This document shows positions 9,746-64,000 of a stretch of DNA of 64,000 nucleotides, in pieces. Position 1 is the stretch's first letter. Each line of letters starts with the position of its first letter. The translations under genes were made by a program, and so were the position numbers. Source of the stretch: Eubacteriales bacterium (GTDB lineage: Bacteria; Bacillota; Clostridia; Oscillospirales; CAG-272); contig JAZTWO010000053.1 of assembly GCA_045635885.1 (NCBI GenBank), positions 31 to 64,030 on the forward strand. Reading direction: 5' to 3'. The notes beneath the pieces were generated by a model, which saw only the letters and a program-made list of their open reading frames with translations, was not told the DNA's origin and did not search any database.

Positions 9746-11116
9746 ATGAGATACGATATCATAATCGTTGGTGCAGGCCCGGGTGGTATTTTCACCGCTT
9801 ATGAACTTTCAAAGCAGAATCAAAATCTCAAAATCGCAGTTTTTGAGGCAGGCCATCCCCTTAGCAAAAGACATTGCCCCATCGACGGTAAAAAGGTTAA
9901 ATCCTGTATCAACTGCAAAACCTGCTCAATTATGAGTGGTTTTGGCGGCGCAGGTGCTTTTTCAGACGGAAAATATAACATCACAAACAACTTTGGTGGC
10001 ACACTTTATGAATACATTGGCAAGGCAAAGGCAACCGAGCTTATGTACTATGTTGACGAAATCAACATGTCCCACGGTGGTGAGGGTACAAAGCTCTATT
10101 CAACAGCCAATTCAAAGTTTAAAAAGCTCTGCCTTCAAAACAAGCTCAACCTTCTTGATGCATCTGTTCGCCACCTTGGAACAGACAAGAACTATATTGT
10201 GCTTAGCAATATTTATAACGAGCTTAAGGATAAAGTTGATTTCTATTTCAACACTCCCGTTCAAAAGCTTGAATTGATTGATGGCGGCTATAAGGCAATC
10301 ACCAAAAAGGGCGACTTTGAAGCTGACAAATGCGTTGTATCTGTTGGTCGAATCGGATCTAAATGGATGGAACAGGTTTGCCGAGATCTCGGGCTTGAAA
10401 AGAAGTCAAACAGAGTTGACATTGGCGTTCGTGTTGAGCTTCCCGCATCCGTTTTCTCACACCTTACAGACGAGCTTTATGAAAGTAAAATAGTTTATAG
10501 AACCGAAAAATTTGAAGATAACGTTCGCACATTCTGTATGAACCCCAAGGGTAGCGTTGTTAACGAGAACACAAACGGTATCGTTACAGTTAACGGTCAC
10601 TCTTATGAAGACGAATCACTTCAAACCGAGAATACAAACTTTGCGCTTCTTGTTTCAAAGCACTTCACATCTCCCTTTGAAGATTCAAACGGATATGGTG
10701 AAAACATTGCTCGCCTTTCAAACATGCTTGGCGGCGGTGTAATCGTGCAAAGATTTGGCGACCTTGTTAGAGGCAGAAGAAGTAATCCCAAAAGAATTGA
10801 AGAGTCCACGGTAACTCCCACACTTGCGGCAACCCCCGGTGACCTTTCACTTGTTCTTCCCAAAAGAATTCTTGACGGAATTATCGAAATGATTTATGCG
10901 CTTGACAAAATCGCACCCGGAACTGCAAACGACGATACACTTCTTTACGGTGTTGAAGTTAAATTCTATAATATGGAAGTTTCAGTTGACGAAAATCTTG
11001 AAAGTCAGCACAAGGGACTTTACATAATTGGTGACGGTAGTGGCATTACGCACTCCCTTTCACACGCATCTGCAAGTGGCGTTCACGTTGCCCGCCACAT
11101 TGTTGGAATTGAATAA
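9746..11116 (+). CDS. FAD-dependent oxidoreductase (COG2509-like uncharacterised dehydrogenase)
   Basis: 456 aa with RBS AAGGAG. It has an N-terminal Rossmann motif DIIIVGAGPGGIFTAYEL and a C-terminal GDGSG motif. Confidence 0.8.
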   Translation: MRYDIIIVGAGPGGIFTAYELSKQNQNLKIAVFEAGHPLSKRHCPIDGKKVKSCINCKTCSIMSGFGGAGAFSDGKYNITNNFGGTLYEYIGKAKATELMYYVDEINMSHGGEGTKLYSTANSKFKKLCLQNKLNLLDASVRHLGTDKNYIVLSNIYNELKDKVDFYFNTPVQKLELIDGGYKAITKKGDFEADKCVVSVGRIGSKWMEQVCRDLGLEKKSNRVDIGVRVELPASVFSHLTDELYESKIVYRTEKFEDNVRTFCMNPKGSVVNENTNGIVTVNGHSYEDESLQTENTNFALLVSKHFTSPFEDSNGYGENIARLSNMLGGGVIVQRFGDLVRGRRSNPKRIEESTVTPTLAATPGDLSLVLPKRILDGIIEMIYALDKIAPGTANDDTLLYGVEVKFYNMEVSVDENLESQHKGLYIIGDGSGITHSLSHASASGVHVARHIVGIE

Positions 11117-11123
11117 TTCATCA

Positions 11124-11158
11124 AAAAAAGGAGAGCCGAAGCTCTCCTTTGTTTTTGT
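11124..11158. terminator. bidirectional terminator
   Basis: Hairpin aaaggagagc-cgaa-gctctccttt flanked by an A-run and a T-run. It sits between convergent genes. Confidence 0.8.
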
Positions 11159-11159
11159 T

Positions 11160-13364
11160 TTATTCACCCTTGTAGCCCCAAACCACAGGACAACCAGAAT
11201 AGTTCCAATAAGAATTCCATTCGCTTGGTTGTGACTCTGCTTCACAGTAAATTGTAAGGGATGTGCAATAAGCGAATGCATAACTACCAATACTTGTTAC
11301 TGAATCGCCTATCTCTACACTTGCAAGGGATATACAACTAGAGAATGCATAATTACCAATGCTTGTCACGGAGTCGGGTATTACTACACTTGTAAGCGAT
11401 GTGCAAGCAGAGAATGCATACGCACCAATACTTGTTACTGAATCACCTATTACTACACTTGTAAGGGATGAGCAACCATAGAATGCATGACCACCAATAC
11501 TTTTTACTGAATCGCCTATCTCTACACTTGTAAGGGATGTGCAACCATTGAATGCATCACCACCAATACTTATTACTGAATCGGGGATTACTACACTTGT
11601 AAGGGATGTGCAATAATGGAATGTCAACTCACCAATACTTGTTACTGAATCGGGGATTACTACACTTGTAAGGGATGTGCAACCATAGAATGCCCAATTA
11701 CCAATACTTGTTACTGAATCGGGGATTACTACACTTGTAAGGGATGTGCAATTATAGAATGCAGTATCACCAATACTTGTTACTGAATCAGGGATTACTA
11801 CACTTGTAAGGGATGTGCAATCACGGAATGTATCACTACCAATACTTGTTAGTGAATCACCTATTACTACACTTGTAAGGGATGAGCAATTTTGGAATAC
11901 ATTAGTACCAATACTTGTTACTGAATCGGGTATCACTACACTTGTAAGGGATTTGCAACCATTGAATGCAGAATTACCAATACTTGTTACTGAATCGCCT
12001 ATCTCTACACTTGTAAGGTATGTGCAATTTTCGAATGCAACATGACCAATACTTGTTACTGAATCGGGTATTACTACACTTGTAAGTGATGAGCAACCAG
12101 AGAATGCATAATAACCAATACTTGTTACATCCGATACAAATTCCACCGTTTCAATATTTGCGCAATTGTAAAGTGCATAACTCGGAACATATTTTCCGCC
12201 GAAAACAACTTTTTTAATAGATGCAACACCCATAAAGCTGTTATTTTCTGATGCATAAGTTGAGTTATAATAAACGGTATTCAAATTATCCGCTTTATAG
12301 AAAATCTGTGTGCCAATATCTGTTACGGATGCAGGAATGGTCATTTCAGTAATTCCCGTGCAACCGTAGAATGCTCTTGTGCCAATTGTTTTAATTGTTT
12401 CGGGAAGATTGATTTCTGTGAGCTGTGTGCATTCAGAAAATGCTTTTTCGCCAATAGCTGTTACTTTATATGTTCTAATATAATCGGGAATGTTAAGAAC
12501 AGTGCCTGCAAATGTGCCAATGCCTGTGATTGTGCAGGTTGTTCCGTCAGCATTTACTGTATATTCAAGACCAAGGTCGCCAATAAATGGAATAACCTCT
12601 TCCTGTGTCTTTTGTTTGCATGTGCTACATGTCTTATACTTATAACCGTCCTCGGTTTCGGTGGGTGCTTTTTCAATTACCCAATCGCTCTCTTTGTGTC
12701 CAAGTGCCTTGATATATGACTGAACAACAAGAACTTCACCACATCTATCGCAATGCTTACCGTCGGTAAGGCCTGCGGTTGTGCAAGTTGCAGCATAGCC
12801 CGTGTCGATAATTTCGTCGTGTCCAAGTGCATTTATAACTGTCTGCGCCTGAAGAACTTCTTCACAACCGTTGCAAATGATTCCTTCTGTAAGACCTGCT
12901 TCAGTGCAAGTGGGAGCTTTCGCTTCATATTTTGTCACGTCAGTGTGCTTGCAAGTTACGTCACGAACGAAATCACAAGTGTTACATGTTGCGTCATTTT
13001 TATCGTCATAAGAGTGCGCAATCTTGGGAATTTCAATCTGTGCCACAAAAATTACACCACAGCTCATGCAATGCAAGCCCTCTGTAAGACCTGTTTTGGT
13101 GCAAGTGGGAGCAACCGCTTCGTCAACAACCTCTTTGTGAACACCTGTTGCCGCAATGGGTGCAGTTTCCAAAACCTTGCCACAAGTTGCGCAGAATTGA
13201 CATTGTTCGCCATCCTTACAAGAAGGAGCTGTAATAGTAACCCACGCACCGGGAGTGTGAACGTGTGCAGGTTCAGTTACTGTGGGCTGTGTTTGTCCGC
13301 CACAGGCAACAAGTGCCAAAGCAAGAAGCAACACAACAAAAGTGAGGGTTAAAATTTTCTTCAT
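11160..13364 (-). CDS. large surface lipoprotein: Cys-rich modules + BspA-type LRR_5 repeat array
   Basis: 734 aa. The signal peptide has an LVAC lipobox (MKKILTLTFVVLLLALALVACGG). Three modules of about 36 aa follow, of the form PTCTxxGLTEGxxCxxCGxxLxxQxxIxALGH. They are followed by more than 15 LRR_5 repeats, 13 of them nearly identical (SLTSVVIPDSVTSIGxxAFxxCT). Confidence 0.88.
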   Translation of the reverse strand: MKKILTLTFVVLLLALALVACGGQTQPTVTEPAHVHTPGAWVTITAPSCKDGEQCQFCATCGKVLETAPIAATGVHKEVVDEAVAPTCTKTGLTEGLHCMSCGVIFVAQIEIPKIAHSYDDKNDATCNTCDFVRDVTCKHTDVTKYEAKAPTCTEAGLTEGIICNGCEEVLQAQTVINALGHDEIIDTGYAATCTTAGLTDGKHCDRCGEVLVVQSYIKALGHKESDWVIEKAPTETEDGYKYKTCSTCKQKTQEEVIPFIGDLGLEYTVNADGTTCTITGIGTFAGTVLNIPDYIRTYKVTAIGEKAFSECTQLTEINLPETIKTIGTRAFYGCTGITEMTIPASVTDIGTQIFYKADNLNTVYYNSTYASENNSFMGVASIKKVVFGGKYVPSYALYNCANIETVEFVSDVTSIGYYAFSGCSSLTSVVIPDSVTSIGHVAFENCTYLTSVEIGDSVTSIGNSAFNGCKSLTSVVIPDSVTSIGTNVFQNCSSLTSVVIGDSLTSIGSDTFRDCTSLTSVVIPDSVTSIGDTAFYNCTSLTSVVIPDSVTSIGNWAFYGCTSLTSVVIPDSVTSIGELTFHYCTSLTSVVIPDSVISIGGDAFNGCTSLTSVEIGDSVKSIGGHAFYGCSSLTSVVIGDSVTSIGAYAFSACTSLTSVVIPDSVTSIGNYAFSSCISLASVEIGDSVTSIGSYAFAYCTSLTIYCEAESQPSEWNSYWNYSGCPVVWGYKGE
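11234..12128 (-). repeat. 13 tandem near-identical 69-bp (23-codon) coding repeats
   Basis: The unit ccaatacttgttactgaatcggggattactacacttgtaagggatgtgcaa... recurs head-to-tail and in frame inside the LRR gene. Confidence 0.9.
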
Positions 13365-46634: not shown

Positions 46635-48266
46635 TTATTTTATTGTAGAATCAATAGAATCTGTATCAATAATTACTAGTCTTCTCTTTATTTCTTCAAC
46701 GAATGCTGAAGCTCGTTTTTTTATAAAAGTATCGAAATCATCGTTCTGTATTCCATAGTCACTGATATCAAAAATTAAGTGATCATTTAATGTTTTCTGA
46801 AGTTCACTATTGTTTTTGGAGAACTCCTCGATGTAATCACTGGGACGTCGATTTCCAATATCCACCTGGTTTGTTGATGCATCTTGCAAAATAATGTTGC
46901 AGATGTTGTTTATAGGCTCATTTGTCCATGCTTGACCGACCATTTTCAATGGGAAGAAATGATGATAATTATTTTTATCTGGCATTGATACCCAATTTTG
47001 ATCAAAGCTTACCAAAGAATTCTTTGAAAGAGACTTGGGAGCCAATGACATAAGCAATCCAATCATTCCCTTGATATACGCAGTTTTTTGACCGAAAGAG
47101 CCATTTGCAACAAAAAGCTCTACGGACAAAGTAACATTGAATTGTTCGGGAGATTCGTCTTTGAGAATCTTATCAATAACATTTTTTGCATCACTTGCAA
47201 TTCTTGTATCAGTAGCTCTGCCAAAACGTCCAGTAAGGATGCAGCGCCAATAATAATCAATGAGATAATCCTGCTGTTTTTTACTGGGAGATTCTATTGA
47301 ATGCGTTTGGTTATACCTGTAGAAGAAATAGACATACAAGTAGAGAATAGGGGTATATGCTAACATATTTCCAACAGGAATTTTCAAGGAATGGATACAA
47401 AATGAAATAGCTGAATTAAGTGCTTTAACAACGGAGTCAAAGGAAGAAATCATTTCGTCACGTGTTAATCTTAGCTGGTCTTTTTTTGTTGTTCCTCCCT
47501 TTACACACAGTGCCACCATCTTTACAAGATCACTATCCGATACAACACTCTTGTATGCAACATTTAGATTATCTCGGCACTCTTTGGCTTTTTCAACCAA
47601 ATTGAATACGTCCGGCTTGTACGTTTTAGCTGTTATGATTTCAAAAGGAGTTAATTTTTTACCACCAGTGTTTAAGCGGGTAAAAATATCTGTAGCAACA
47701 TCTATATTTACACTATCAATTTTGATAGAGGGGAAATCTAACTCGTTTAGTTTTTTCTGGATTGCAGATATTTTGTCTATGTGATTAGGATAGTTGAGAA
47801 CAAAATACTTTAAGTCATTTTCACACAATTTAGCAAAGCTGATATTTACAAAATCTACATCTTCTGAGCGAACTGTAACAATGTCAGTTTCATAGTCCGT
47901 AAGATCGGCATCCAAGTTGATAATAATATCGGCATAAGATTTGTTTTTTATGGTCAACCCTTTAACGGCAGCAAAAATACTAGTGATACGTTGTTGACCG
48001 TCCAATATATATGTAGTCTTTGCAGTTTCGTCCTGCTTGTCATATATTACAGTGTTGCCGATTTGCTTTATTTTACAAAGCACTTCGTCCGTTGTCCATA
48101 AAATGAAAGCACCAAGAGGGTATCCCTTAATCCAGCTATCTAGCAGTTGTGCGGATTGCTCTATATCCCAAACAAAATCTCTTTGAAAGTCGGGAATGAC
48201 GTAAGTTCCATTAGATAAATTTGTTTCTATATCTGAAAGTTTGAGTGGTATGGATATCGGTCTCAT
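46635..48266 (-). CDS. DUF262 + DUF1524-like (GmrSD-family) putative type IV restriction endonuclease
   Basis: 543 aa. N-terminal ParB-like motifs IPDFQRDFVW and LDGQQRITS are present. The C-terminal His-Me-finger-like segment is HHFFPLK...NNICNIILQDASTNQ. Confidence 0.7.
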   Translation of the reverse strand: MRPISIPLKLSDIETNLSNGTYVIPDFQRDFVWDIEQSAQLLDSWIKGYPLGAFILWTTDEVLCKIKQIGNTVIYDKQDETAKTTYILDGQQRITSIFAAVKGLTIKNKSYADIIINLDADLTDYETDIVTVRSEDVDFVNISFAKLCENDLKYFVLNYPNHIDKISAIQKKLNELDFPSIKIDSVNIDVATDIFTRLNTGGKKLTPFEIITAKTYKPDVFNLVEKAKECRDNLNVAYKSVVSDSDLVKMVALCVKGGTTKKDQLRLTRDEMISSFDSVVKALNSAISFCIHSLKIPVGNMLAYTPILYLYVYFFYRYNQTHSIESPSKKQQDYLIDYYWRCILTGRFGRATDTRIASDAKNVIDKILKDESPEQFNVTLSVELFVANGSFGQKTAYIKGMIGLLMSLAPKSLSKNSLVSFDQNWVSMPDKNNYHHFFPLKMVGQAWTNEPINNICNIILQDASTNQVDIGNRRPSDYIEEFSKNNSELQKTLNDHLIFDISDYGIQNDDFDTFIKKRASAFVEEIKRRLVIIDTDSIDSTIK

Positions 48267-58793: not shown

Positions 58794-58822
58794 TTGAAAA
58801 ATACAAAAAAATGTGATACAAT
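58794..58822 (+). promoter_or_regulatory. sigma-A promoter (extended -10) for the GHKL/Z1/PD-(D/E)XK operon
   Basis: TTGAAA (58794-58799), a 17-nt spacer ending in TGa, then TACAAT (58817-58822). Confidence 0.5.
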
Positions 58823-58889
58823 GATGTAATAATATAAATATTTAAATAAATATTAATATTTTTAATATATTTTTGTGCAGGAGGCATAT

Positions 58890-60371
58890 ATGGTTAATTT
58901 GAAAGAAAACAAGCCCACGGCCGATATTTTGATGAATTCTATGAGATCAATGGGATATTCATTCGAAAGTGCAATTGCCGATATTGTTGATAATAGTATT
59001 AGCGCCGCTGCACATAATATTTGGATTCGTTTCCCGATCGACCCTTTGGACTGCTATGTGGCTATTTGTGATGATGGTTGTGGAATGAGCAAAGAAGAAC
59101 TTTTTGATGCTATGAAATATGGAAGCGAGCAAAAGCGCAACTACCGATCATCGGATGATTTGGGAAGATTTGGGCTTGGATTGAAATCCGCATCACTTTC
59201 ACAGTGTAGAAAACTAACTGTAGCTAGCAAGAAAAACGGAGAAGTTTCTGCATATATTTGGGACCTTGATATCATCCTCGAAAAAAAAGATTGGTATATG
59301 GTAGAATGTTCCGAGCAACAAATAGAGTCAATTAAACAAATCTCGTGGTTAAACAACTTAGATAGTGGTACCGTGGTTGTTTGGGAAAATTTTGATGTTA
59401 TAGAAAAAGCATCAGGAAATGTATATTCCGAGTTGAACAAGTATCAAGAAGATACCGCTGATTATTTATCATTGATTTTTCATAGATTTATCAATCGTGT
59501 TGGTAATGCCAAAGTTTCATTCAAAGTTAATAATTTTATTCTTTGTGGAATGGATCCATTTTTAGAATCTCATCCCAAGACCAATGTGCGCAAAAGAATA
59601 GAAATTCCTATTTTAGACTCCCAAAACATTGAGCGCATGGTTGTTGTACAACCTTATGTGTTGCCTTTTCAAAAAGATCTTACAGCAGAAGATAAAAAAT
59701 TGTCTGGAGGTATTGAAAATTATCGTTCTAAACAAGGATTTTATGTTTATAGGAACGAAAGATTGATTGTTTGGGGCAATTGGTTTGGAAGGCATAGAGA
59801 TGAACTCACAAAATATGCGAGAATTCGTGTGGATATTCCCAATACATTGGATGATATTTGGGGTATAGATATTAAAAAGCAGAGTGCAAAAATTCCGTCG
59901 GTAATCAAAAATAGACTAACTAGAGCCGTAGATGAGGCTATGGACATAGCCGTTAAAGCGCAGAAATTTAGAGGACGTGTTGATAAAGCAAATGATAAAA
60001 TTGATTACATTTGGCTTCCAATCAAGACACGTGAAGAGCAACATGCTTTTGTGATAAATCGAGATGCCAAGATTTTTGATTTAATTAAAGGGCAAGTGGA
60101 TGATGAAACTTGGGCAAGGATAGATATGGTTTTAGAAGAAATTGAAAACTCATTACCGTATCAGCAAATCTATATAGATAAATCTCAAAATAAAATTGAT
60201 GATACTGTTGATGATGAACGCAAAGCGGAAATCGAAAACAAAGCAAGAATGTTAATAATGATGGCTTTAGCGATGGGAAATGCAGATAAATCAAACATTA
60301 TTGAATCCCTTTTTAATTCTGAACCATTTAACAATTATCCGGAGTTGAAAATCAAATTGTTGGAGGAATGA
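58890..60371 (+). CDS. GHKL (HATPase_c_3, MutL/Hsp90-like) ATPase
   Basis: ATG at 58890 follows AGGAGG. The track's GTG at 58875 is less likely. Bergerat-fold motifs ESAIADIVDNSISA, ICDDGCGM and GRFGLGLKSAS are present. Confidence 0.85.
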   Translation: MVNLKENKPTADILMNSMRSMGYSFESAIADIVDNSISAAAHNIWIRFPIDPLDCYVAICDDGCGMSKEELFDAMKYGSEQKRNYRSSDDLGRFGLGLKSASLSQCRKLTVASKKNGEVSAYIWDLDIILEKKDWYMVECSEQQIESIKQISWLNNLDSGTVVVWENFDVIEKASGNVYSELNKYQEDTADYLSLIFHRFINRVGNAKVSFKVNNFILCGMDPFLESHPKTNVRKRIEIPILDSQNIERMVVVQPYVLPFQKDLTAEDKKLSGGIENYRSKQGFYVYRNERLIVWGNWFGRHRDELTKYARIRVDIPNTLDDIWGIDIKKQSAKIPSVIKNRLTRAVDEAMDIAVKAQKFRGRVDKANDKIDYIWLPIKTREEQHAFVINRDAKIFDLIKGQVDDETWARIDMVLEEIENSLPYQQIYIDKSQNKIDDTVDDERKAEIENKARMLIMMALAMGNADKSNIIESLFNSEPFNNYPELKIKLLEE

Positions 60372-60372
60372 T

Positions 60373-63207
60373 ATGAGTATTAACATAGAGAAAATTGGTA
60401 AATTAGTAGGTTTTGTTGTTAAGTTTATTGAGATTAGAGAGTTGGAGCATTCTTTGGACGAACAAATCGTATCAGAGTTAATAGAGCAAGCCAGTGATAT
60501 CAGTGGAGTTGAGTATACTTTAGAAGAAAAAGAAGCCGCTAAACGAGATATTACGTGGAAATTTCAAATTTTTGCCGACCCCGGACAAAGCATTCTTGCT
60601 GATTATGATCAAGAAAATTGGTACGATGATCGCAAAGCTGAAATTGAACCAAAATTTTGGACTAGATATAAAAATTATCTTATTGACACAAAGCACTTTA
60701 GTCCCAACATAGTTAGTACACTAGGCGAAGATACTTTAGATCAAAAATTGATGAATTATATACTTGATCCCAAAGCAGAGTACCCTCACCCTGTTTTGAG
60801 ACGCGGATTGATCATAGGTGATGTACAATCCGGTAAAACTTCTACATATATAGGATTTCTCTGCAAAGCCGCTGATGCTGGATATAAGGTGTTTATACTT
60901 TTAACGGGCACTATAGAGTCTCTTAGAAAACAAACTCAAGAAAGAGTAGAAGAGGGGTTTGTTGGTATTGATATGTCTGCTAATACTACTGGCGGAAAGA
61001 GAGTGGGTGTTGGCTTGGATAATAAGCCTATTCATGCTATGGCTATGACTTCCCGGGCTAGTGATTTTAAAGGAGATAATGATAAAATTGCTGTGTCATT
61101 GGCAGGAAATAACGATGCAGTAGTATTTGTTATTAAAAAGAATACTACTACATTGACTAAACTGACTAATTGGCTTGTTACATTAAATGCTGATCCTGTC
61201 ACTAAAAAAATTGATATGCCTATGCTTATGATTGACGATGAAGCGGACAATGCTTCCATTAACACAAGTGCTAGCAAAGAAGATCCTACAAAAATTAATA
61301 AATTGATTCGCGAATTAGCTAATGTATTTACAAAATCCAATTATGTGGGCTTTACAGCTACTCCTTTTGCAAATGTATTTATTGATCCTGAAACAACTGA
61401 AAAGATGGAAACACAGGATTTGTTTTCAGAAGACTTTATTGTTGCATTGCCAACTCCTAGTAATTATATTGGACCTAATAAAATATTTGCAGAACAAGGT
61501 GAATATCATTCTCAGTTGGTATATATTACTGATGCTGGGCGTGAGCAAGAAGATGGATATCCATTCTATTTTAAGCATAAGAAAGAGTGGGAAGATGAAT
61601 TGCCAGACAGTTTAACTGATGCTATATATACATTTTATTTGGCTAATGCGATTCGCGATTTAAGGGGTGACTTAAAGGATCATCGTTCTATGTTAATTAA
61701 TATTTCTCGATTTGTTAAGGTGCAGAAATATATCAAGGGAGAAGTGGAAGGTATACACTCGAGTGCATATAGGTCTATTAAATACAATCTTAGTAACAAT
61801 TTTGCTGAATCTATGCAAGATCCTAATTTGAAAAGGTTATATTTGATATGGAAAAAGCACTATGAAAAATGTGAATTTACTTGGGACCAAATTGTTGATG
61901 TTCTTTTTAGTTCTATCGAAAATATGCAAATTAAAATTGTCAATAGTTCTAAAAATTCTGAAAAGTTAGACTATCCTAAAAATGAATCATTGCGTGTTAT
62001 TGCAATTGGTGGTTTAGCCTTGTCGCGTGGACTGACTCTTGAAGGATTGGTTGTTAGTTATTTTTACAGAAACACGTGTACATATGACGTATTGATGCAA
62101 ATGGGACGCTGGTTTGGATACAGAAAGAACTACGATGATCTCTTCCGCATTTGGACTCACAAATCTTCCGCAAGATGGTACGCTGAAATCGCAGAGGCAA
62201 CAGACAGATTGAAAGACGATATGACTTTAATGCGTGATCTTGGTCAAAGACCGCGTGATTTCGGTATTCGTGTTCGTAACAACTCTGCCGAGTTAAGCAT
62301 TACCGCATACAACAAAATGCGTAATGCAACAGATGAATATGAGTTTTCCAGTTACTTTGGTGGTATAGTGGAAACGCCATATTTACATTTGAATCCTGCA
62401 GCACATAAAAACAATTTCGAAGCGGTACGACAGCTTGTAGCACAGGTTGTTGCTGGCGAATCCAGTTTTGATAGGCAGCAAAATATGGGCGCTAGAGGCC
62501 ACTATATTATTCCCGATATTCCCAAAGCTCATATAGTAGACCTTATACGCAAGCTTAAGATCTCACGTTTCAGTTCCAATTTTGATCCGAAACAAATCGC
62601 AGATTTTCTTGAAAATTGTTCTGATCATTCGATAGACCTATTCGATATCGCTTTTATGGAAGGATCCCCCACGCAAGAAGAACAACTACTCGTTAACTTG
62701 GAAGGTCGTATCATTCCTAAAGTTTTAAGAAAAAATTGCATTATCGATAGCGATACAGATCGACTTGGAATTGGTCAGCGCGGAAAACTCGGTGGTCCTG
62801 GAGATGGTCGAACCGGAATTATTGATTTTAACGGAAGCACATTTGAAGAAATCATTGAAAATGCTAAAGTGCAGTATCGTAAAGAGTATCAGCGTGTTCA
62901 CGGATATGCATTTACAGACGGTAAAACTTATCCTTCCGATACATGGTTTAAGTTTGTAAAAAATAGAAAGCCCATCTTGCTTGTTTACTTTATTGATGTC
63001 GGCGTCGATGAGGATGAAAAGAATCAGATCCGCCAAATCGAAAAGTTCCGCAGTGAAATGGGCAGCATACCTGCGGTAGGCTTTGCGCTTGGGTTGCCTC
63101 AAAACAAAGAAGCGGCAATGATTAGTGGAACTAAATACAAAGCTAATAAAGTATATAACTGGTTTGAACAAGATGAAATCTTAGCGGAGGCAGGTGAAGA
63201 AGAATGA
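60373..63207 (+). CDS. Z1-domain SF2 helicase-like ATPase
   Basis: 944 aa, starting 1 nt after the previous stop. Walker A GDVQSGKTS, Walker B MIDDEADNAS, FTATPFAN, GGLALSRGLTLEGL and QMGRWFGYR are present. Confidence 0.85.
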   Translation: MSINIEKIGKLVGFVVKFIEIRELEHSLDEQIVSELIEQASDISGVEYTLEEKEAAKRDITWKFQIFADPGQSILADYDQENWYDDRKAEIEPKFWTRYKNYLIDTKHFSPNIVSTLGEDTLDQKLMNYILDPKAEYPHPVLRRGLIIGDVQSGKTSTYIGFLCKAADAGYKVFILLTGTIESLRKQTQERVEEGFVGIDMSANTTGGKRVGVGLDNKPIHAMAMTSRASDFKGDNDKIAVSLAGNNDAVVFVIKKNTTTLTKLTNWLVTLNADPVTKKIDMPMLMIDDEADNASINTSASKEDPTKINKLIRELANVFTKSNYVGFTATPFANVFIDPETTEKMETQDLFSEDFIVALPTPSNYIGPNKIFAEQGEYHSQLVYITDAGREQEDGYPFYFKHKKEWEDELPDSLTDAIYTFYLANAIRDLRGDLKDHRSMLINISRFVKVQKYIKGEVEGIHSSAYRSIKYNLSNNFAESMQDPNLKRLYLIWKKHYEKCEFTWDQIVDVLFSSIENMQIKIVNSSKNSEKLDYPKNESLRVIAIGGLALSRGLTLEGLVVSYFYRNTCTYDVLMQMGRWFGYRKNYDDLFRIWTHKSSARWYAEIAEATDRLKDDMTLMRDLGQRPRDFGIRVRNNSAELSITAYNKMRNATDEYEFSSYFGGIVETPYLHLNPAAHKNNFEAVRQLVAQVVAGESSFDRQQNMGARGHYIIPDIPKAHIVDLIRKLKISRFSSNFDPKQIADFLENCSDHSIDLFDIAFMEGSPTQEEQLLVNLEGRIIPKVLRKNCIIDSDTDRLGIGQRGKLGGPGDGRTGIIDFNGSTFEEIIENAKVQYRKEYQRVHGYAFTDGKTYPSDTWFKFVKNRKPILLVYFIDVGVDEDEKNQIRQIEKFRSEMGSIPAVGFALGLPQNKEAAMISGTKYKANKVYNWFEQDEILAEAGEEE

Positions 63208-64000
63208 TTAATATAAAAGAATTGTTTTCCAAATTTGAAAATGCTAATTATTTTTCGAGAGTGGATAATGTTCACCCACTTGAGTTACATATAGGGCTGG
63301 ATGATAAGGGTAGAAAGGCTATTGAGCTTAGAGCTATTTTTACACCTCGAAAAATCACAGGAACTTCTGCTATAGAAGTTAATCAATATAAAAAGCAAGA
63401 TTACAATACCATTCGTTTTTCTCTTTGTGATGAGGATATAAGTGGTTTGTTCTATAAGTTTTGTGATGATTTGATAGAGCAAACTAGAAACGTAGAGGAA
63501 AAGAGCGAAGGATATGCAGCGATTGTGGGGCGTTTTTTTCAGTGGAAAAAGATGTTTGTGTCTTCAAAGAATAATTTTCTTACCGAACCTGAAATTATGG
63601 GTCTAATAGGTGAGATTTTGGTGTTGAGGGGCTATCTTGCAAAACGTATAGGATTGACTAAAGCATTGGAAAGCTGGAGTGGTCAAGAATTGACGCATAA
63701 AGATTTTTCTTTTGAAGATACTTGGATTGAAGCTAAGACTATTAGCAGAGGCGCTCAAGCAGTTAAAATATCTTCTTTGGAACAGCTTGATAGTGATAAT
63801 GCAGGAGAACTTGCTGTACATAGTTTGGAAAAGATGAGTACAGCTTACAATGGAATTACACTTAATAAGTTGATTCTTGAAACAAGAAATATGTTTCATC
63901 CGGGTGAAGAGCAGGATGCCTTTATGGCAAAAGTAGCTTTGCAAGGATATGAATACAATAACTATTATGATGATTTTGTTTACGAAATAAGTAATTTTAA
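63204..64000 (+). CDS. PD-(D/E)XK motif protein (DUF4420-like), 3' end outside the window
   Basis: The ATG overlaps the Z1 stop (ATGA at 63204-63207). The frame is open to the window edge (265 codons). EIMGLIGEILVLRGYL and HKDFSFEDTWIEAKT give D...ExK. It is not in the ORF track because the window truncates it. Confidence 0.75.
   Translation, partial: MINIKELFSKFENANYFSRVDNVHPLELHIGLDDKGRKAIELRAIFTPRKITGTSAIEVNQYKKQDYNTIRFSLCDEDISGLFYKFCDDLIEQTRNVEEKSEGYAAIVGRFFQWKKMFVSSKNNFLTEPEIMGLIGEILVLRGYLAKRIGLTKALESWSGQELTHKDFSFEDTWIEAKTISRGAQAVKISSLEQLDSDNAGELAVHSLEKMSTAYNGITLNKLILETRNMFHPGEEQDAFMAKVALQGYEYNNYYDDFVYEISNF

What the first reader, a model, noticed from the sequence alone, without database searches (positions are those of the whole stretch)
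58794..64000. Methylase-less GHKL-ATPase / Z1 helicase-like ATPase / PD-(D/E)XK triad
Three overlapping or abutting genes follow a good promoter. There is a 1-nt gap at 60371/60373 and an ATGA overlap at 63204-63207. They encode:
- a Bergerat-fold ATPase (DNSISA, DDGCGM, GLGLKS)
- a Z1-domain protein with Walker A/B and QxxGRxxR helicase motifs
- a DUF4420-like protein with D...ExK

As I recall it, this gene set is typically found next to Dcm-type cytosine methyltransferase and vsr genes, often followed by an AIPR protein. It has been flagged in comparative-genomic surveys as defence-island enriched. I do not know of a mechanism.

In this window, the upstream neighbours are Xis/DUF3846 genes on the opposite strand, and no methyltransferase is visible. 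That suggests a modification-independent, or modification-dependent type IV-like, mode of action. The system continues beyond the window.
Basis: partly seen in the sequence, partly recalled or inferred. Interest (0 to 1): 0.6.

Follow-up and report, generated by a model that had tools for sequence, protein, structure and literature searches.

The report
Methylase-linked Mza-type restriction operon

Summary
Three tightly coupled genes encode a GHKL ATPase, a DEAD-Z1 motor protein and a DUF4420 PD-(D/E)XK nuclease, with all catalytic motifs intact.

The contig runs 10.8 kb beyond the window. The operon continues with an AIPR protein and, overlapping it by ATGA, a Dcm-type C5 cytosine methyltransferase.

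The same five-gene order recurs in 7 of 7 full-length related loci. It also recurs in every more distant relative sampled (down to 31% AIPR identity) whose contig reaches that far.

The family is already described:
- It is the "third type" of MORC/paraMORC restriction-modification operon of Iyer, Abhiman and Aravind (2008).
- It is the "type II" putative defence system of Miller et al. (2022).
- It is a distant, methylase-bearing relative of the validated mzaABCDE system. It is not Mza in the strict sense: all four NCBIfam scores are far below cut-off and there is no mzaA.

The most likely mechanism is ATP-dependent, restriction-modification-like cleavage of DNA that lacks the operon's own 5mC mark. 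This is inferred, not shown.

Verdict: new member of a known kind, with low to moderate interest.

The parts
58794..58822 (+). Promoter-like site: TTGAAA, 17-nt spacer, TACAAT, with an extended -10 TG.
   Evidence: One search gives 10 of 12 matches, the second-best site in the region. The site count in the region equals chance, so this is plausible only. Sequence read.
58890..60371 (+). MORC-type GHKL ATPase (MzaB-like), 493 aa counted from ATG 58890. The mechanical ORF list starts at GTG 58875.
   Evidence: Family matches: Pfam HATPase_c_3 4.5e-36; PADLOC MzaB 7.6e-86; NCBIfam MzaB 305.6 bits against a cut-off of 850. The best PDB sequence hits are MORC4, MORC3 and MORC2.

Motifs: DIVDNS aa 31-36, DDGCG aa 61-65, GRFGLG aa 92-97, SGTVV aa 159-163, and the MORC S5 motif GFYVYRNERLI aa 283-293. 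All are invariant in alignment A1.

Start site: RBS GGAGG at 58880-58884.
60373..63207 (+). DEAD-Z1 SF2 helicase-like motor protein (MzaC-like), 944 aa, with a conserved C-terminal domain of about 300 aa and unknown fold.
   Evidence: Family matches: Pfam Z1 1.5e-76 and ResIII 8.5e-4; PADLOC MzaC 1.6e-120; NCBIfam MzaC 466.7 bits against a cut-off of 1500.

Motifs: Walker A aa 149-156, DEAD aa 289-292, TAT aa 328-330, and the Z1 motif DVLMQMGRWFG aa 572-582.

C-terminal region aa 641-944: conserved in 11 loci (A4). The AF2 model has pLDDT 79.3 and no PDB fold match.
63204..64000 (+). DUF4420 PD-(D/E)XK nuclease (MzaD-like), cut by the window end. The operon CONTINUES BEYOND THE WINDOW; the evidence field lists the downstream genes.
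   Evidence: **The DUF4420 gene.**
- Pfam DUF4420 5.3e-52 for the full 305-aa protein.
- PADLOC MzaD 3.2e-15.
- NCBIfam MzaD 88.9 bits against a cut-off of 420.
- E137, D167 and E176-x-K178 are invariant in A2.
- It overlaps the Z1 gene by ATGA.

**Downstream parts.** These are given in window-equivalent coordinates, where window = L001 + 58000 and contig C53 = window + 30. The schema does not accept them as separate entries.
1. The DUF4420 gene ends at 64121.
2. AIPR_N + AIPR protein (MzaE-like, AbiU-like), 753 aa, at 64135-66396 (+).
   - Pfam AIPR 6.3e-81 and AIPR_N 4.5e-24.
   - PADLOC MzaE 3.5e-48.
   - NCBIfam MzaE 238.8 bits against 1050.
   - The AF2 model has pLDDT 84.6 and no PDB fold match.
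3. Dcm-type C5 methyltransferase, 424 aa, at 66393-67667 (+), overlapping AIPR by ATGA.
   - Pfam 4.9e-52.
   - TIGR00675 138.3 bits, above its cut-off of 100.65.
   - Motifs FSGIG, PCQ, ENV, QNRPR and GNSI.
   - The closest solved relative is CG-specific M.MpeI 4dkj at 4.2e-51, without the target-recognition domain.
4. HNH gene at 67715-68506 (+), broken by an in-frame TAA at 68210-68212. It is probably not a core component.
5. tRNA-Met at 68889-68966 (-) and tRNA-Leu at 68984-69072 (-).

Best explanation
**What it is.** This is a five-gene, horizontally acquired defence operon. It runs from window 58.79 kb to window-equivalent 67.67 kb. The genes, in order, are:
1. a prokaryotic MORC-type GHKL ATPase;
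2. a DEAD-Z1 SF2 motor;
3. a DUF4420 PD-(D/E)XK nuclease;
4. an AIPR protein;
5. a Dcm-type C5 cytosine methyltransferase.

**Shown here.**
- The gene content, the translational coupling and the intact catalytic motifs.
- The methyltransferase is a constant member of the cassette across distant relatives.
- The cassette is absent from 40 related genomes.

**Inferred mechanism: an ATP-dependent restriction-modification system.**
- The methyltransferase marks the host's copies of a still unknown target sequence with 5-methylcytosine.
- Incoming DNA that lacks the mark is recognised.
- The Z1 motor hydrolyses ATP to translocate along double-stranded DNA, as the CglI H-subunit does.
- The MORC dimer acts as an ATP-gated clamp or licensing switch, as MutL does for MutH and UvrD.
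- The DUF4420 nuclease then cuts the DNA.

In most relatives a Vsr nuclease repairs T:G mismatches left by 5mC deamination. This copy lacks vsr and instead carries a stop-broken HNH gene.

**Confidence.** About 0.9 that it is this kind of operon, and about 0.55 that the restriction-modification logic and the assignment of roles are right.
For: **Gene content and families.**

**Tight coupling, with no terminator-like hairpin between the genes.** Junctions are TGA-T-ATG, ATGA, a 13-nt gap, then ATGA.

**Catalytic residues are invariant in relatives.** Alignments A1 and A2.

**The layout is conserved.**
- The ~495 / ~940 / ~305 / ~752 / ~427 aa layout is present in all seven full-length related loci: L002, L003, L004, L006, L007, L009 and L011. 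Pfam assignments were confirmed for L009.
- Relatives at 31-41% AIPR identity keep GHKL-Z1-DUF4420-AIPR followed by a C5 methyltransferase wherever the contig reaches: L017, L025, L026 and L027.

**Modular swap.** A sister architecture keeps Dcm, GHKL, AIPR and Vsr but replaces Z1 with an SNF2 helicase plus a B3/EcoRII-N protein, and replaces DUF4420 with HNH (L014-L016). This shows a motor-plus-nuclease design.

**Horizontal acquisition.** The Z1 gene is found in 1 of 41 genomes (own plus 40 relatives, 22 of them in the same genus), while a 90%-identical copy sits in another lineage.

**Literature.**
- Iyer et al. 2008 (PMC2292703) described this operon type and proposed the MutL/MutH/UvrD analogy.
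- The CglI H-subunit DEAD-Z1 domain is a dsDNA translocase that activates a nuclease (PMC5861437).
- E. coli mzaABCDE protects against T4 without growth arrest, and purified MzaD cuts DNA (bioRxiv 10.1101/2022.06.16.496414).
- Miller et al. 2022 (PMC9523054) list Z1 + DUF4420 + cytosine methyltransferase as the core, and AIPR plus a MORC-like ATPase as "type II".
Against: - No experiment exists for any methylase-linked member.
- The validated relative, mzaABCDE, works without its own methyltransferase. It restricts T4 with unmodified C and with hmC about equally. The BCDE-like module therefore need not read methylation at all.
- The component that would read sequence or methylation is not identified. 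AIPR and the Z1 C-terminal domain gave no structural match in the PDB and no sequence match either.
- The MORC general base is Asp rather than the Glu of MutL and MORC2-4 (A1). Its effect on ATPase activity is unknown.
- The methyltransferase's target is unknown.
Confidence: 0.6

Rival explanations
1. The MORC-Z1-DUF4420-AIPR module acts independently of methylation, as mzaABCDE appears to. The neighbouring Dcm is an independent orphan or the remnant of an ordinary type II system that merely travels with it.
For: - E. coli mzaABCDE has no methyltransferase and still restricts T4(C) and T4(hmC) 10^3-10^4-fold.
- PADLOC's best match for the MTase is an "orphan methyltransferase" model at 7.7e-57.
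- A broken HNH gene follows the MTase. It could be the dead cognate nuclease of an ordinary type II system.
Against: - The MTase start overlaps the AIPR stop by ATGA.
- A C5 MTase directly follows AIPR in all seven close loci, and in L017, L025, L026 and L027 at 33-41% AIPR identity. That is far beyond what hitch-hiking would preserve.
- Most of those loci have Vsr after the MTase and not the 263-aa HNH.
- Published surveys count the MTase as a core gene.
Confidence: 0.12
2. Abortive infection. AIPR (AbiU-like) is a toxic effector released when the MORC/Z1 sensor detects phage DNA. It kills or arrests the infected cell rather than cutting the phage genome.
For: - AIPR matches PADLOC AbiU at 1.3e-20.
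- The family is named for abortive infection.
- Makarova et al. 2012 (PMC3506569) link AbiU1/AIPR to restriction-modification systems and to a coupling of immunity with suicide.
Against: - E. coli mzaABCDE showed no growth arrest at any multiplicity of infection.
- The AF2 model of the AIPR N-terminal region is alpha/beta, not an all-helical HEPN. I saw no Rx4-6H motif by eye in that region of the translation; I did not run a pattern scan for it.
- A dedicated nuclease (DUF4420) is already present.
Confidence: 0.08
3. Modification-dependent (type IV-like) restriction. The machine attacks DNA carrying foreign modifications. The operon's own Dcm serves another purpose, for example blocking a competing nuclease.
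For: - McrA-type HNH or ScoMcrA-SBD genes lie just downstream of the MTase here and in L002, L003 and L025.
- GmrSD_N genes lie in the same islands.
Against: - A system that cuts 5mC DNA would be incompatible with a co-transcribed C5 methyltransferase unless the specificities differ.
- mzaABCDE restricts unmodified T4(C) as well as T4(hmC), and is weakened by glucosyl-hmC.
- The downstream type IV-like genes vary between loci, so they are neighbours and not core genes.
Confidence: 0.06
4. Not defence. It is a mobile MutL-like mismatch or very-short-patch repair module that accompanies a selfish methyltransferase.
For: - A MutL-family ATPase, a helicase-like motor, an RE-fold nuclease and Vsr (in relatives) together mirror MutL/UvrD/MutH/Vsr.
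- Iyer et al. 2008 note occasional recruitment of such modules to repair.
Against: - The operon lies in a defence island with a GmrSD_N gene and next to tRNA genes.
- It is absent from 40 related genomes.
- This copy has no vsr.
- The homologous Mza system protects against phage.
Confidence: 0.04

Closest known systems
MORC/paraMORC restriction-modification operons, "third type" (Iyer, Abhiman and Aravind 2008, Biol Direct 3:8, PMC2292703)
   Same: Every listed component matches:
- a GHKL ATPase with the MORC S5 motif;
- a distinct SFII helicase with the DThhQXuRhFG (Z1) motif;
- an extra conserved RE-fold protein with E-D-ExK;
- DCM;
- AIPR;
- Vsr, present in relatives.

It also behaves as a mobile island.
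   Different: Nothing essential differs. This copy lacks vsr and has a broken HNH gene in that position. The 2008 description is purely computational.
"Type II" putative defence system of Miller et al. 2022 (Nat Commun 13:5731, PMC9523054)
   Same: The core is a ~925-aa Z1 protein, a PD-(D/E)XK DUF4420 protein and a cytosine methyltransferase. AIPR is added and a MORC-family ATPase is associated. Similarity to mzaBCDE is low.
   Different: The transcriptional regulator they often found is not evident here. I could not assign subtype II-A or II-B from the text available.
mzaABCDE (Mza) anti-phage system of Salmonella and E. coli. Papers read here attribute it to earlier screens. I recall Gao et al. 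2020, Science, from my own knowledge.
   Same: It has the same four families in the same order: MzaB GHKL, MzaC Z1, MzaD DUF4420, MzaE AIPR. PADLOC E-values run from 1e-120 to 3e-15.
   Different: - There is no mzaA (sigma-factor-like gene).
- This operon has a co-transcribed C5 methyltransferase, which the strict-sense mzaABCDE set tested in E. coli does not include.
- All four NCBIfam equivalog scores are 21-36% of their cut-offs.
- The Z1 protein extends about 110-180 aa beyond the matched part of the MzaC models.
CglI / NgoAVII ATP-dependent restriction enzymes (H-subunit DEAD-Z1 motor; PMC5861437)
   Same: [quoted passage not shown] It translocates on dsDNA to activate a separate nuclease within a restriction-modification system.
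   Different: - The CglI nuclease is a PLD/B3 R-subunit, not a PD-(D/E)XK protein.
- CglI has no GHKL or AIPR partner.
- There was no sequence-level PDB hit.
- The C-terminal domain model did not match any PDB chain.
MutL-MutH-UvrD with Dam, and MutL-Vsr with Dcm (E. coli mismatch and very-short-patch repair)
   Same: The functional logic is the same. A GHKL clamp licenses an RE-fold nuclease and a helicase, guided by a DNA methylation mark.
   Different: This is an analogy, not membership. There is no MutS-like mismatch sensor. The helicase family differs. The element is mobile and lies in a defence island.

Membership tests
mzaABCDE (Mza) in the strict sense | MzaB, MzaC, MzaD and MzaE equivalogs that score above the NCBIfam cut-offs. 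| tested here: not met
   Scores against cut-offs are 305.6 vs 850, 466.7 vs 1500, 88.9 vs 420 and 238.8 vs 1050 bits. The PADLOC models do hit. The relationship is therefore at family level, not equivalog level.
mzaABCDE (Mza) in the strict sense | A MzaA gene (sigma-factor-like, 726-position model) at the head of the operon. | tested here: not met
   NF041931 finds only generic sigma-70-like genes on other contigs (C24, C47, C61, C37, C33). None is over the cut-off, and the same model also hits 10 of the 14 control genomes. Upstream of the GHKL gene are minus-strand HTH and DUF3846 genes.
mzaABCDE (Mza) in the strict sense | Anti-phage protection shown by experiment. | not testable with these tools
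   Only E. coli and Salmonella Mza have been tested.
MORC + Z1 helicase restriction-modification operon (Iyer 2008, third type) | A GHKL ATPase with four ATP-binding motifs and the MORC-specific S5 motif GhXhhpXXRhl. | tested here: met
   The motifs are DIVDNS, DDGCG, GRFGLG, SGTVV and GFYVYRNERLI (aa 283-293). They are invariant in A1. The best PDB hits are MORC4, MORC3 and MORC2.
MORC + Z1 helicase restriction-modification operon (Iyer 2008, third type) | An SFII helicase with a C-terminal globular domain that carries DThhQXuRhFG. | tested here: met
   DVLMQMGRWFG is at aa 572-582, with V in place of T. Walker A, DEAD and TAT are present. Pfam Z1 matches at 1.5e-76.
MORC + Z1 helicase restriction-modification operon (Iyer 2008, third type) | An additional conserved RE-fold protein with E-D-ExK. 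| tested here: met
   DUF4420 matches at 5.3e-52. E137, D167 and E176-x-K178 are invariant (A2).
MORC + Z1 helicase restriction-modification operon (Iyer 2008, third type) | Linked DNA (mostly cytosine) methylase, often Vsr, and AIPR. | tested here: met
   AIPR and Dcm lie directly downstream. Vsr is absent here but present in L003, L004, L007, L009 and L011.
Miller 2022 putative defence system, type II | A core of Z1 protein, DUF4420 PD-(D/E)XK protein and cytosine methyltransferase, plus AIPR, associated with a MORC-family ATPase. | tested here: met
   for this locus. for relatives. The definition was read.
Classical restriction-modification system (functional class) | The methyltransferase protects host DNA from the linked nuclease. 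| not testable with these tools
   This rests only on conserved operon linkage. The target motif is unknown. Genome CpG observed/expected is 1.00, which gives no signal.
M.MpeI / M.SssI family of CG-specific C5 methyltransferases | A target-recognition domain that specifies CG. | tested here: inconclusive
   The catalytic domain (aa 7-235) and motifs IX-X (aa 353-414) align with M.MpeI 4dkj at 4.2e-51. The TRD (about aa 236-352) is not aligned. 4DKJ is identified as CG-specific M.MpeI by the papers.
ParB / DUF262 (DGQQR) NTPase fold, considered for AIPR | Structural similarity of the NGGQT-bearing domain to ParB/Srx-fold proteins. | tested here: not met
   An AF2 model with pLDDT 84.6 gave no Foldseek PDB hit with E below 1.

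The most novel reading that the evidence does not exclude
The operon's methyltransferase belongs, by its catalytic domain, to the M.MpeI/M.SssI group of CpG methyltransferases. If its divergent target-recognition domain still specifies CG or another very short motif, the MORC-Z1-DUF4420-AIPR machine would use dense, genome-wide cytosine methylation as the self mark. That would be a bacterial counterpart of the eukaryotic pairing of MORC ATPases with CpG methylation.

AIPR or the fold-orphan C-terminal domain of the Z1 protein would then be a new kind of reader of unmethylated DNA.

Evidence against:
- The TRD does not align with M.MpeI.
- Genome CpG is not depleted.
- Nothing here shows which protein reads DNA.
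Probability: 0.08. Interest if true: 0.6.

Novelty: new member of a known kind. Interest (0 to 1): 0.22.

Why it matters
It matters mainly as a correction. A window edge, not biology, produced the "methylase-less" reading.

The family itself is widespread, and its mechanism is still unsolved. No methylase-linked member has been tested. The only tested relative, Mza, works without a methylase.

A compact, intact copy from a gut Firmicute is a reasonable candidate for asking three questions:
- How do a MORC-type clamp, a Z1 translocase and a PD-(D/E)XK nuclease cooperate?
- What does AIPR do?
- How is self told from non-self?

Eukaryotic MORCs are thought to derive from these bacterial systems (Iyer et al. 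2008), so a worked-out mechanism would also inform MORC biology. None of this is specific to this copy.

Tried and rejected
1. **AIPR as a ParB/DUF262-like NTPase.**
   - A confident AF2 model (pLDDT 84.6) found no PDB relative. The best Foldseek E was 1.1, with only faint hits to Can2 and HamA nucleases at probability 0.16 or less. The idea is not supported.
2. **AIPR N-terminal HEPN domain (PMC3506569).** The model's N-terminal region is alpha/beta. I saw no Rx4-6H motif by eye in the translation, but I ran no pattern scan. The HEPN paper lists AbiU2, not AIPR.
3. **Z1 C-terminal domain (aa 641-944) as a CglI-like or B3-like DNA-binding domain.** The model has pLDDT 79.3 and pTM 0.78. It gave no PDB match; the best E was 0.24 with TM at or below 0.16.
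4. **Sequence searches of the PDB.** The Z1, AIPR and DUF4420 proteins gave nothing meaningful.
5. **CpG depletion as a trace of CpG methylation.** The genome odds ratio is 1.00 and the operon's is 0.89. This is uninformative.
6. **A tRNA-derived att repeat to delimit the island.** The 20-mer occurs only twice, 231 bp apart, next to the tRNA. The left boundary was not found.
8. **Mapping all operon proteins onto related loci in Python.** The loci fetched by the search for related loci were not placed in the Python box. I used ORF lists and Pfam scans instead.
9. **A literature search on MzaB-E.** It was swamped by journal article identifiers such as "mzad...".
10. **Separate report entries for the downstream genes.** The report schema accepts only coordinates within the window. 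They are described under the last part instead.

Full report
**Observation**

The three ORFs are present as described.
- The first encodes a GHKL ATPase (Pfam HATPase_c_3, 4.5e-36).
- The second encodes a 944-aa protein with a Z1 domain (1.5e-76) behind a weak ResIII match.
- The third encodes a DUF4420 PD-(D/E)XK protein.

The junctions are a 1-nt gap (TGA-T-ATG at 60369-60375) and an ATGA overlap at 63204-63207.

One correction applies to the first gene. Its mechanical ORF starts at GTG 58875. GGAGG at 58880-58884 followed by ATG at 58890 gives a 493-aa protein, the length found in the closest relatives.

The promoter-like site at 58794-58822 is a good match (10 of 12, with an extended -10 TG). 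The region as a whole has no more such sites than shuffled sequence.

**Beyond the window**

The window is bases 31-64030 of a 74,898-base contig in a 1.72-Mb genome of 83 contigs. I fetched the continuation as L001, where window coordinate = L001 + 58000. In window-equivalent coordinates:
- The DUF4420 gene ends at 64121 (305 aa).
- A 753-aa gene follows after 13 nt (64135-66396).
- A 424-aa gene overlaps that by ATGA (66393-67667).

The 753-aa protein is AIPR_N + AIPR (4.5e-24 and 6.3e-81). The 424-aa protein is a C5 cytosine DNA methyltransferase. It matches Pfam at 4.9e-52 and TIGR00675 at 138 bits, above the cut-off of 100.65. Motifs FSGIG, PCQ, ENV, QNRPR and GNSI are all present.

Further downstream lie:
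- an HNH gene split by an in-frame TAA;
- two hairpins;
- tRNA-Met and tRNA-Leu on the minus strand;
- core genes such as recG.

**Named system**

PADLOC matches all four non-methylase proteins to the Mza models: MzaB 7.6e-86, MzaC 1.6e-120, MzaD 3.2e-15 and MzaE 3.5e-48.

The NCBIfam equivalog models also hit, but at 21-36% of their cut-offs: 305.6 vs 850, 466.7 vs 1500, 88.9 vs 420 and 238.8 vs 1050.

MzaA, a sigma-factor-like protein, is not in the locus. The MzaA model finds only ordinary sigma-70-type genes on other contigs, as it does in 10 of the 14 control genomes.

This is therefore a family-level relative of Mza, not Mza in the strict sense.

**Conservation**

A scan of one genome per species found 12 related loci, at 90% to 52% Z1 identity. 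They come from Eubacteriales, Ruminococcus, Acutalibacteraceae, Oscillospiraceae, Candidatus Coproplasma and one Bacteroidia MAG.

All seven loci with full flanks have the same ~495 / ~940 / ~305 / ~752 / ~427 aa layout. Pfam assignments were confirmed for L009.

To reach further, I searched 1.84 billion representative proteins with a 93%-identical AIPR. This gave 3612 hits at E of 0.001 or better. I then looked up the contigs of distant hits.
- At 41%, 40%, 39% and 33% identity, the order (GHKL)-Z1-DUF4420-AIPR is again followed by one or two C5 methyltransferases (L017, L025, L026, L027).
- At 31% the contig ends too early to tell (L028).
- At 57% identity, AIPR sits in a sister operon next to a relaxase: HTH, Dcm, SNF2 helicase, EcoRII-N/B3 protein, GHKL, HNH, AIPR, Vsr fusion (L014-L016).

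GHKL, AIPR, Dcm and Vsr thus form a constant scaffold, while the motor and the nuclease are interchangeable. This matches the "second" and "third" operon types of Iyer et al. 2008.

**Motifs**

Across eight loci the following residues are invariant. GHKL numbers are counted from the ATG start. In the GTG-start numbering used in alignment A1 they are 5 higher.
- GHKL: D31, D34 and N35 (motif I); D61-x-G63-x-G65; G92-x-x-G95-x-G97; G160-T161.
- DUF4420: E137, D167 and E176-x-K178.

The GHKL protein carries GFYVYRNERLI, which fits the GhXhhpXXRhl motif that Iyer et al. use to separate true MORCs from paraMORCs. Its best PDB sequence hits are human MORC4, MORC3 and MORC2.

The residue aligned with the catalytic Glu of MutL and MORC is Asp throughout this clade. 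That assignment rests on my knowledge of MutL E29.

**Horizontal origin**

The Z1 gene is present in this genome only, out of 41 genomes searched (own plus 40 relatives, 22 of them in the same genus). A 90%-identical copy sits in a different lineage.

The surroundings contain:
- a GmrSD_N gene and a RecQ-UvrD fusion helicase;
- HTH and DUF3846 remnants of a conjugative element;
- two tRNA genes at the end.

**The methyltransferase**

Its closest solved relative is 4dkj/8c56 at E 4e-51, against 1e-12 for M.HhaI. Papers identify 4DKJ as the CG-specific M.MpeI.

The alignment covers aa 7-235 and 353-414. It does not cover the target-recognition domain, so the specificity is open.

Genome CpG is not depleted, with an odds ratio of 1.00. 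For a recently acquired element this decides nothing.

**Attempts to find the DNA reader**

AIPR has 23 invariant residues in 65 diverse homologues, mostly Asn, Gln, Arg and Gly. They include NVR, NNG, NGGQT and ER. I suspected a ParB/DUF262-like fold.
- A confident model (pLDDT 84.6) found no PDB relative.
- The Z1 protein's C-terminal ~300 aa are conserved down to 24% identity. The PADLOC and NCBIfam MzaC matches stop at residues 836 and 766 of this 944-aa protein.
- The model of that C-terminal region (pLDDT 79.3, pTM 0.78) also found nothing.

Both are fold orphans among solved structures.

**Mechanism**

Shown:
- gene content, coupling, motif integrity and conserved linkage to a C5 methyltransferase.

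From the literature:
- The only characterised Z1 protein, the CglI H-subunit, is an ATP-driven dsDNA translocase that activates a nuclease.
- E. coli mzaABCDE protects against T4 without growth arrest, and purified MzaD cuts DNA.
- GHKL clamps such as MutL license RE-fold nucleases (MutH, Vsr) and a helicase (UvrD) under guidance of methylation.

Inferred:
- The methyltransferase marks self.
- Unmarked DNA is sensed.
- The Z1 motor translocates.
- The MORC dimer gates the reaction.
- DUF4420 cleaves.

The main caveat is that Mza works without a methylase and treats C and hmC alike. The nuclease module may therefore have a trigger unrelated to methylation.

**Comparison and novelty**

This operon type was described computationally in 2008. 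It was re-derived in 2022 as a "type II" putative defence system with ~20% identity to mzaBCDE. A Listeria methyltransferase has also been reported as part of an mza system.

Unchecked notes from this scan report the same methylase-linked cassette in at least 29 other genomes. I reached my reading before seeing them and treat them only as consistent.

The copy here is a new member of a known kind.

**Limits**

I could not test transcription or the reality of the HNH stop codon. No methylome data were available.

Noticed in passing
Beyond the window: window-equivalent 67715-68506 (L001 9715-10506): An HNH endonuclease gene directly after the methyltransferase is broken by an in-frame TAA at 68210-68212. 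The stop aligns with codon 166 of an intact 263-aa homologue in L002 (72% and 69% identity for the two halves). It occupies the slot where five of seven relatives carry vsr. Only its HNH core matches PADLOC's type IV restriction model, and the N-terminal ~150 aa are unassigned. I could not check the stop codon in reads.
   Followed up: partly
L003, L006, L007, L009, L011 at about 17.2-19.7 kb of each locus: The gene after Dcm(-Vsr) differs in every relative:
- L003: a 657-aa HNH protein.
- L007: a second AIPR.
- L006: a KAP NTPase, with no vsr.
- L011: a GIY-YIG protein.
- L009: a GmrSD_N protein.

This is a variable slot for extra nucleases or NTPases.
   Followed up: partly
L014-L016 (ENA metagenome scaffolds): A sister operon with a 57%-identical AIPR lies beside a relaxase/MobC module. 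Its order is HTH, Dcm, SNF2 helicase, EcoRII-N/B3 DNA-binding protein, GHKL ATPase, HNH, AIPR, a 292-aa Vsr fusion and a WYL protein. The motor and nuclease are swapped relative to the window's operon.
   Followed up: no
Beyond the window: window-equivalent 68658-68677 and 68889-68908: The first 20 bases of the tRNA-Met gene as it reads on the + strand (its 3' end), TGGTTGCGGGGGTGGGATTT, are repeated once 231 bp upstream. No other copy exists in the genome. This looks like an att-type remnant of an old integration at the tRNA.
   Followed up: partly
window 58980-58982 (GHKL residue D31 counted from ATG 58890): The residue aligned with the catalytic Glu of MutL and MORC is Asp (A-D-I-V/I-D-N-S) in this protein and in all seven relatives aligned. 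Whether this changes the ATPase rate is unknown.
   Followed up: no
L013 (Bacteroidia MAG, contig_80058) 10001-12754: The only relative outside the Firmicutes (52% identity) has its Z1 region broken into short ORFs of 252 and 184 aa. It is either a decayed copy or carries frameshift errors from a long-read assembly.
   Followed up: no
window 46638-48266 (-): A 543-aa protein with a GmrSD_N (DUF262) domain (1.1e-33) lies 10 kb upstream, between the cellulosome-type genes and the RecQ-UvrD fusion helicase. The distal 18 kb of the window is a defence island.
   Followed up: no
whole genome G000: Several short palindromes are strongly under-represented relative to a maximal-order Markov expectation: CTAG 0.14, GGCC 0.23, CGCG 0.29, GATC 0.44, CATG 0.46, GAGCTC 0.24 and GGCGCC 0.24. 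CpG as a dinucleotide is at 1.00. This is consistent with long exposure to restriction systems, and I could not link it to this operon.
   Followed up: no
L025 7686-11361: A relative with 40% AIPR identity carries two tandem C5 methyltransferases after AIPR, followed by a protein with the sulfur-binding domain of ScoMcrA (PF26340).
   Followed up: no
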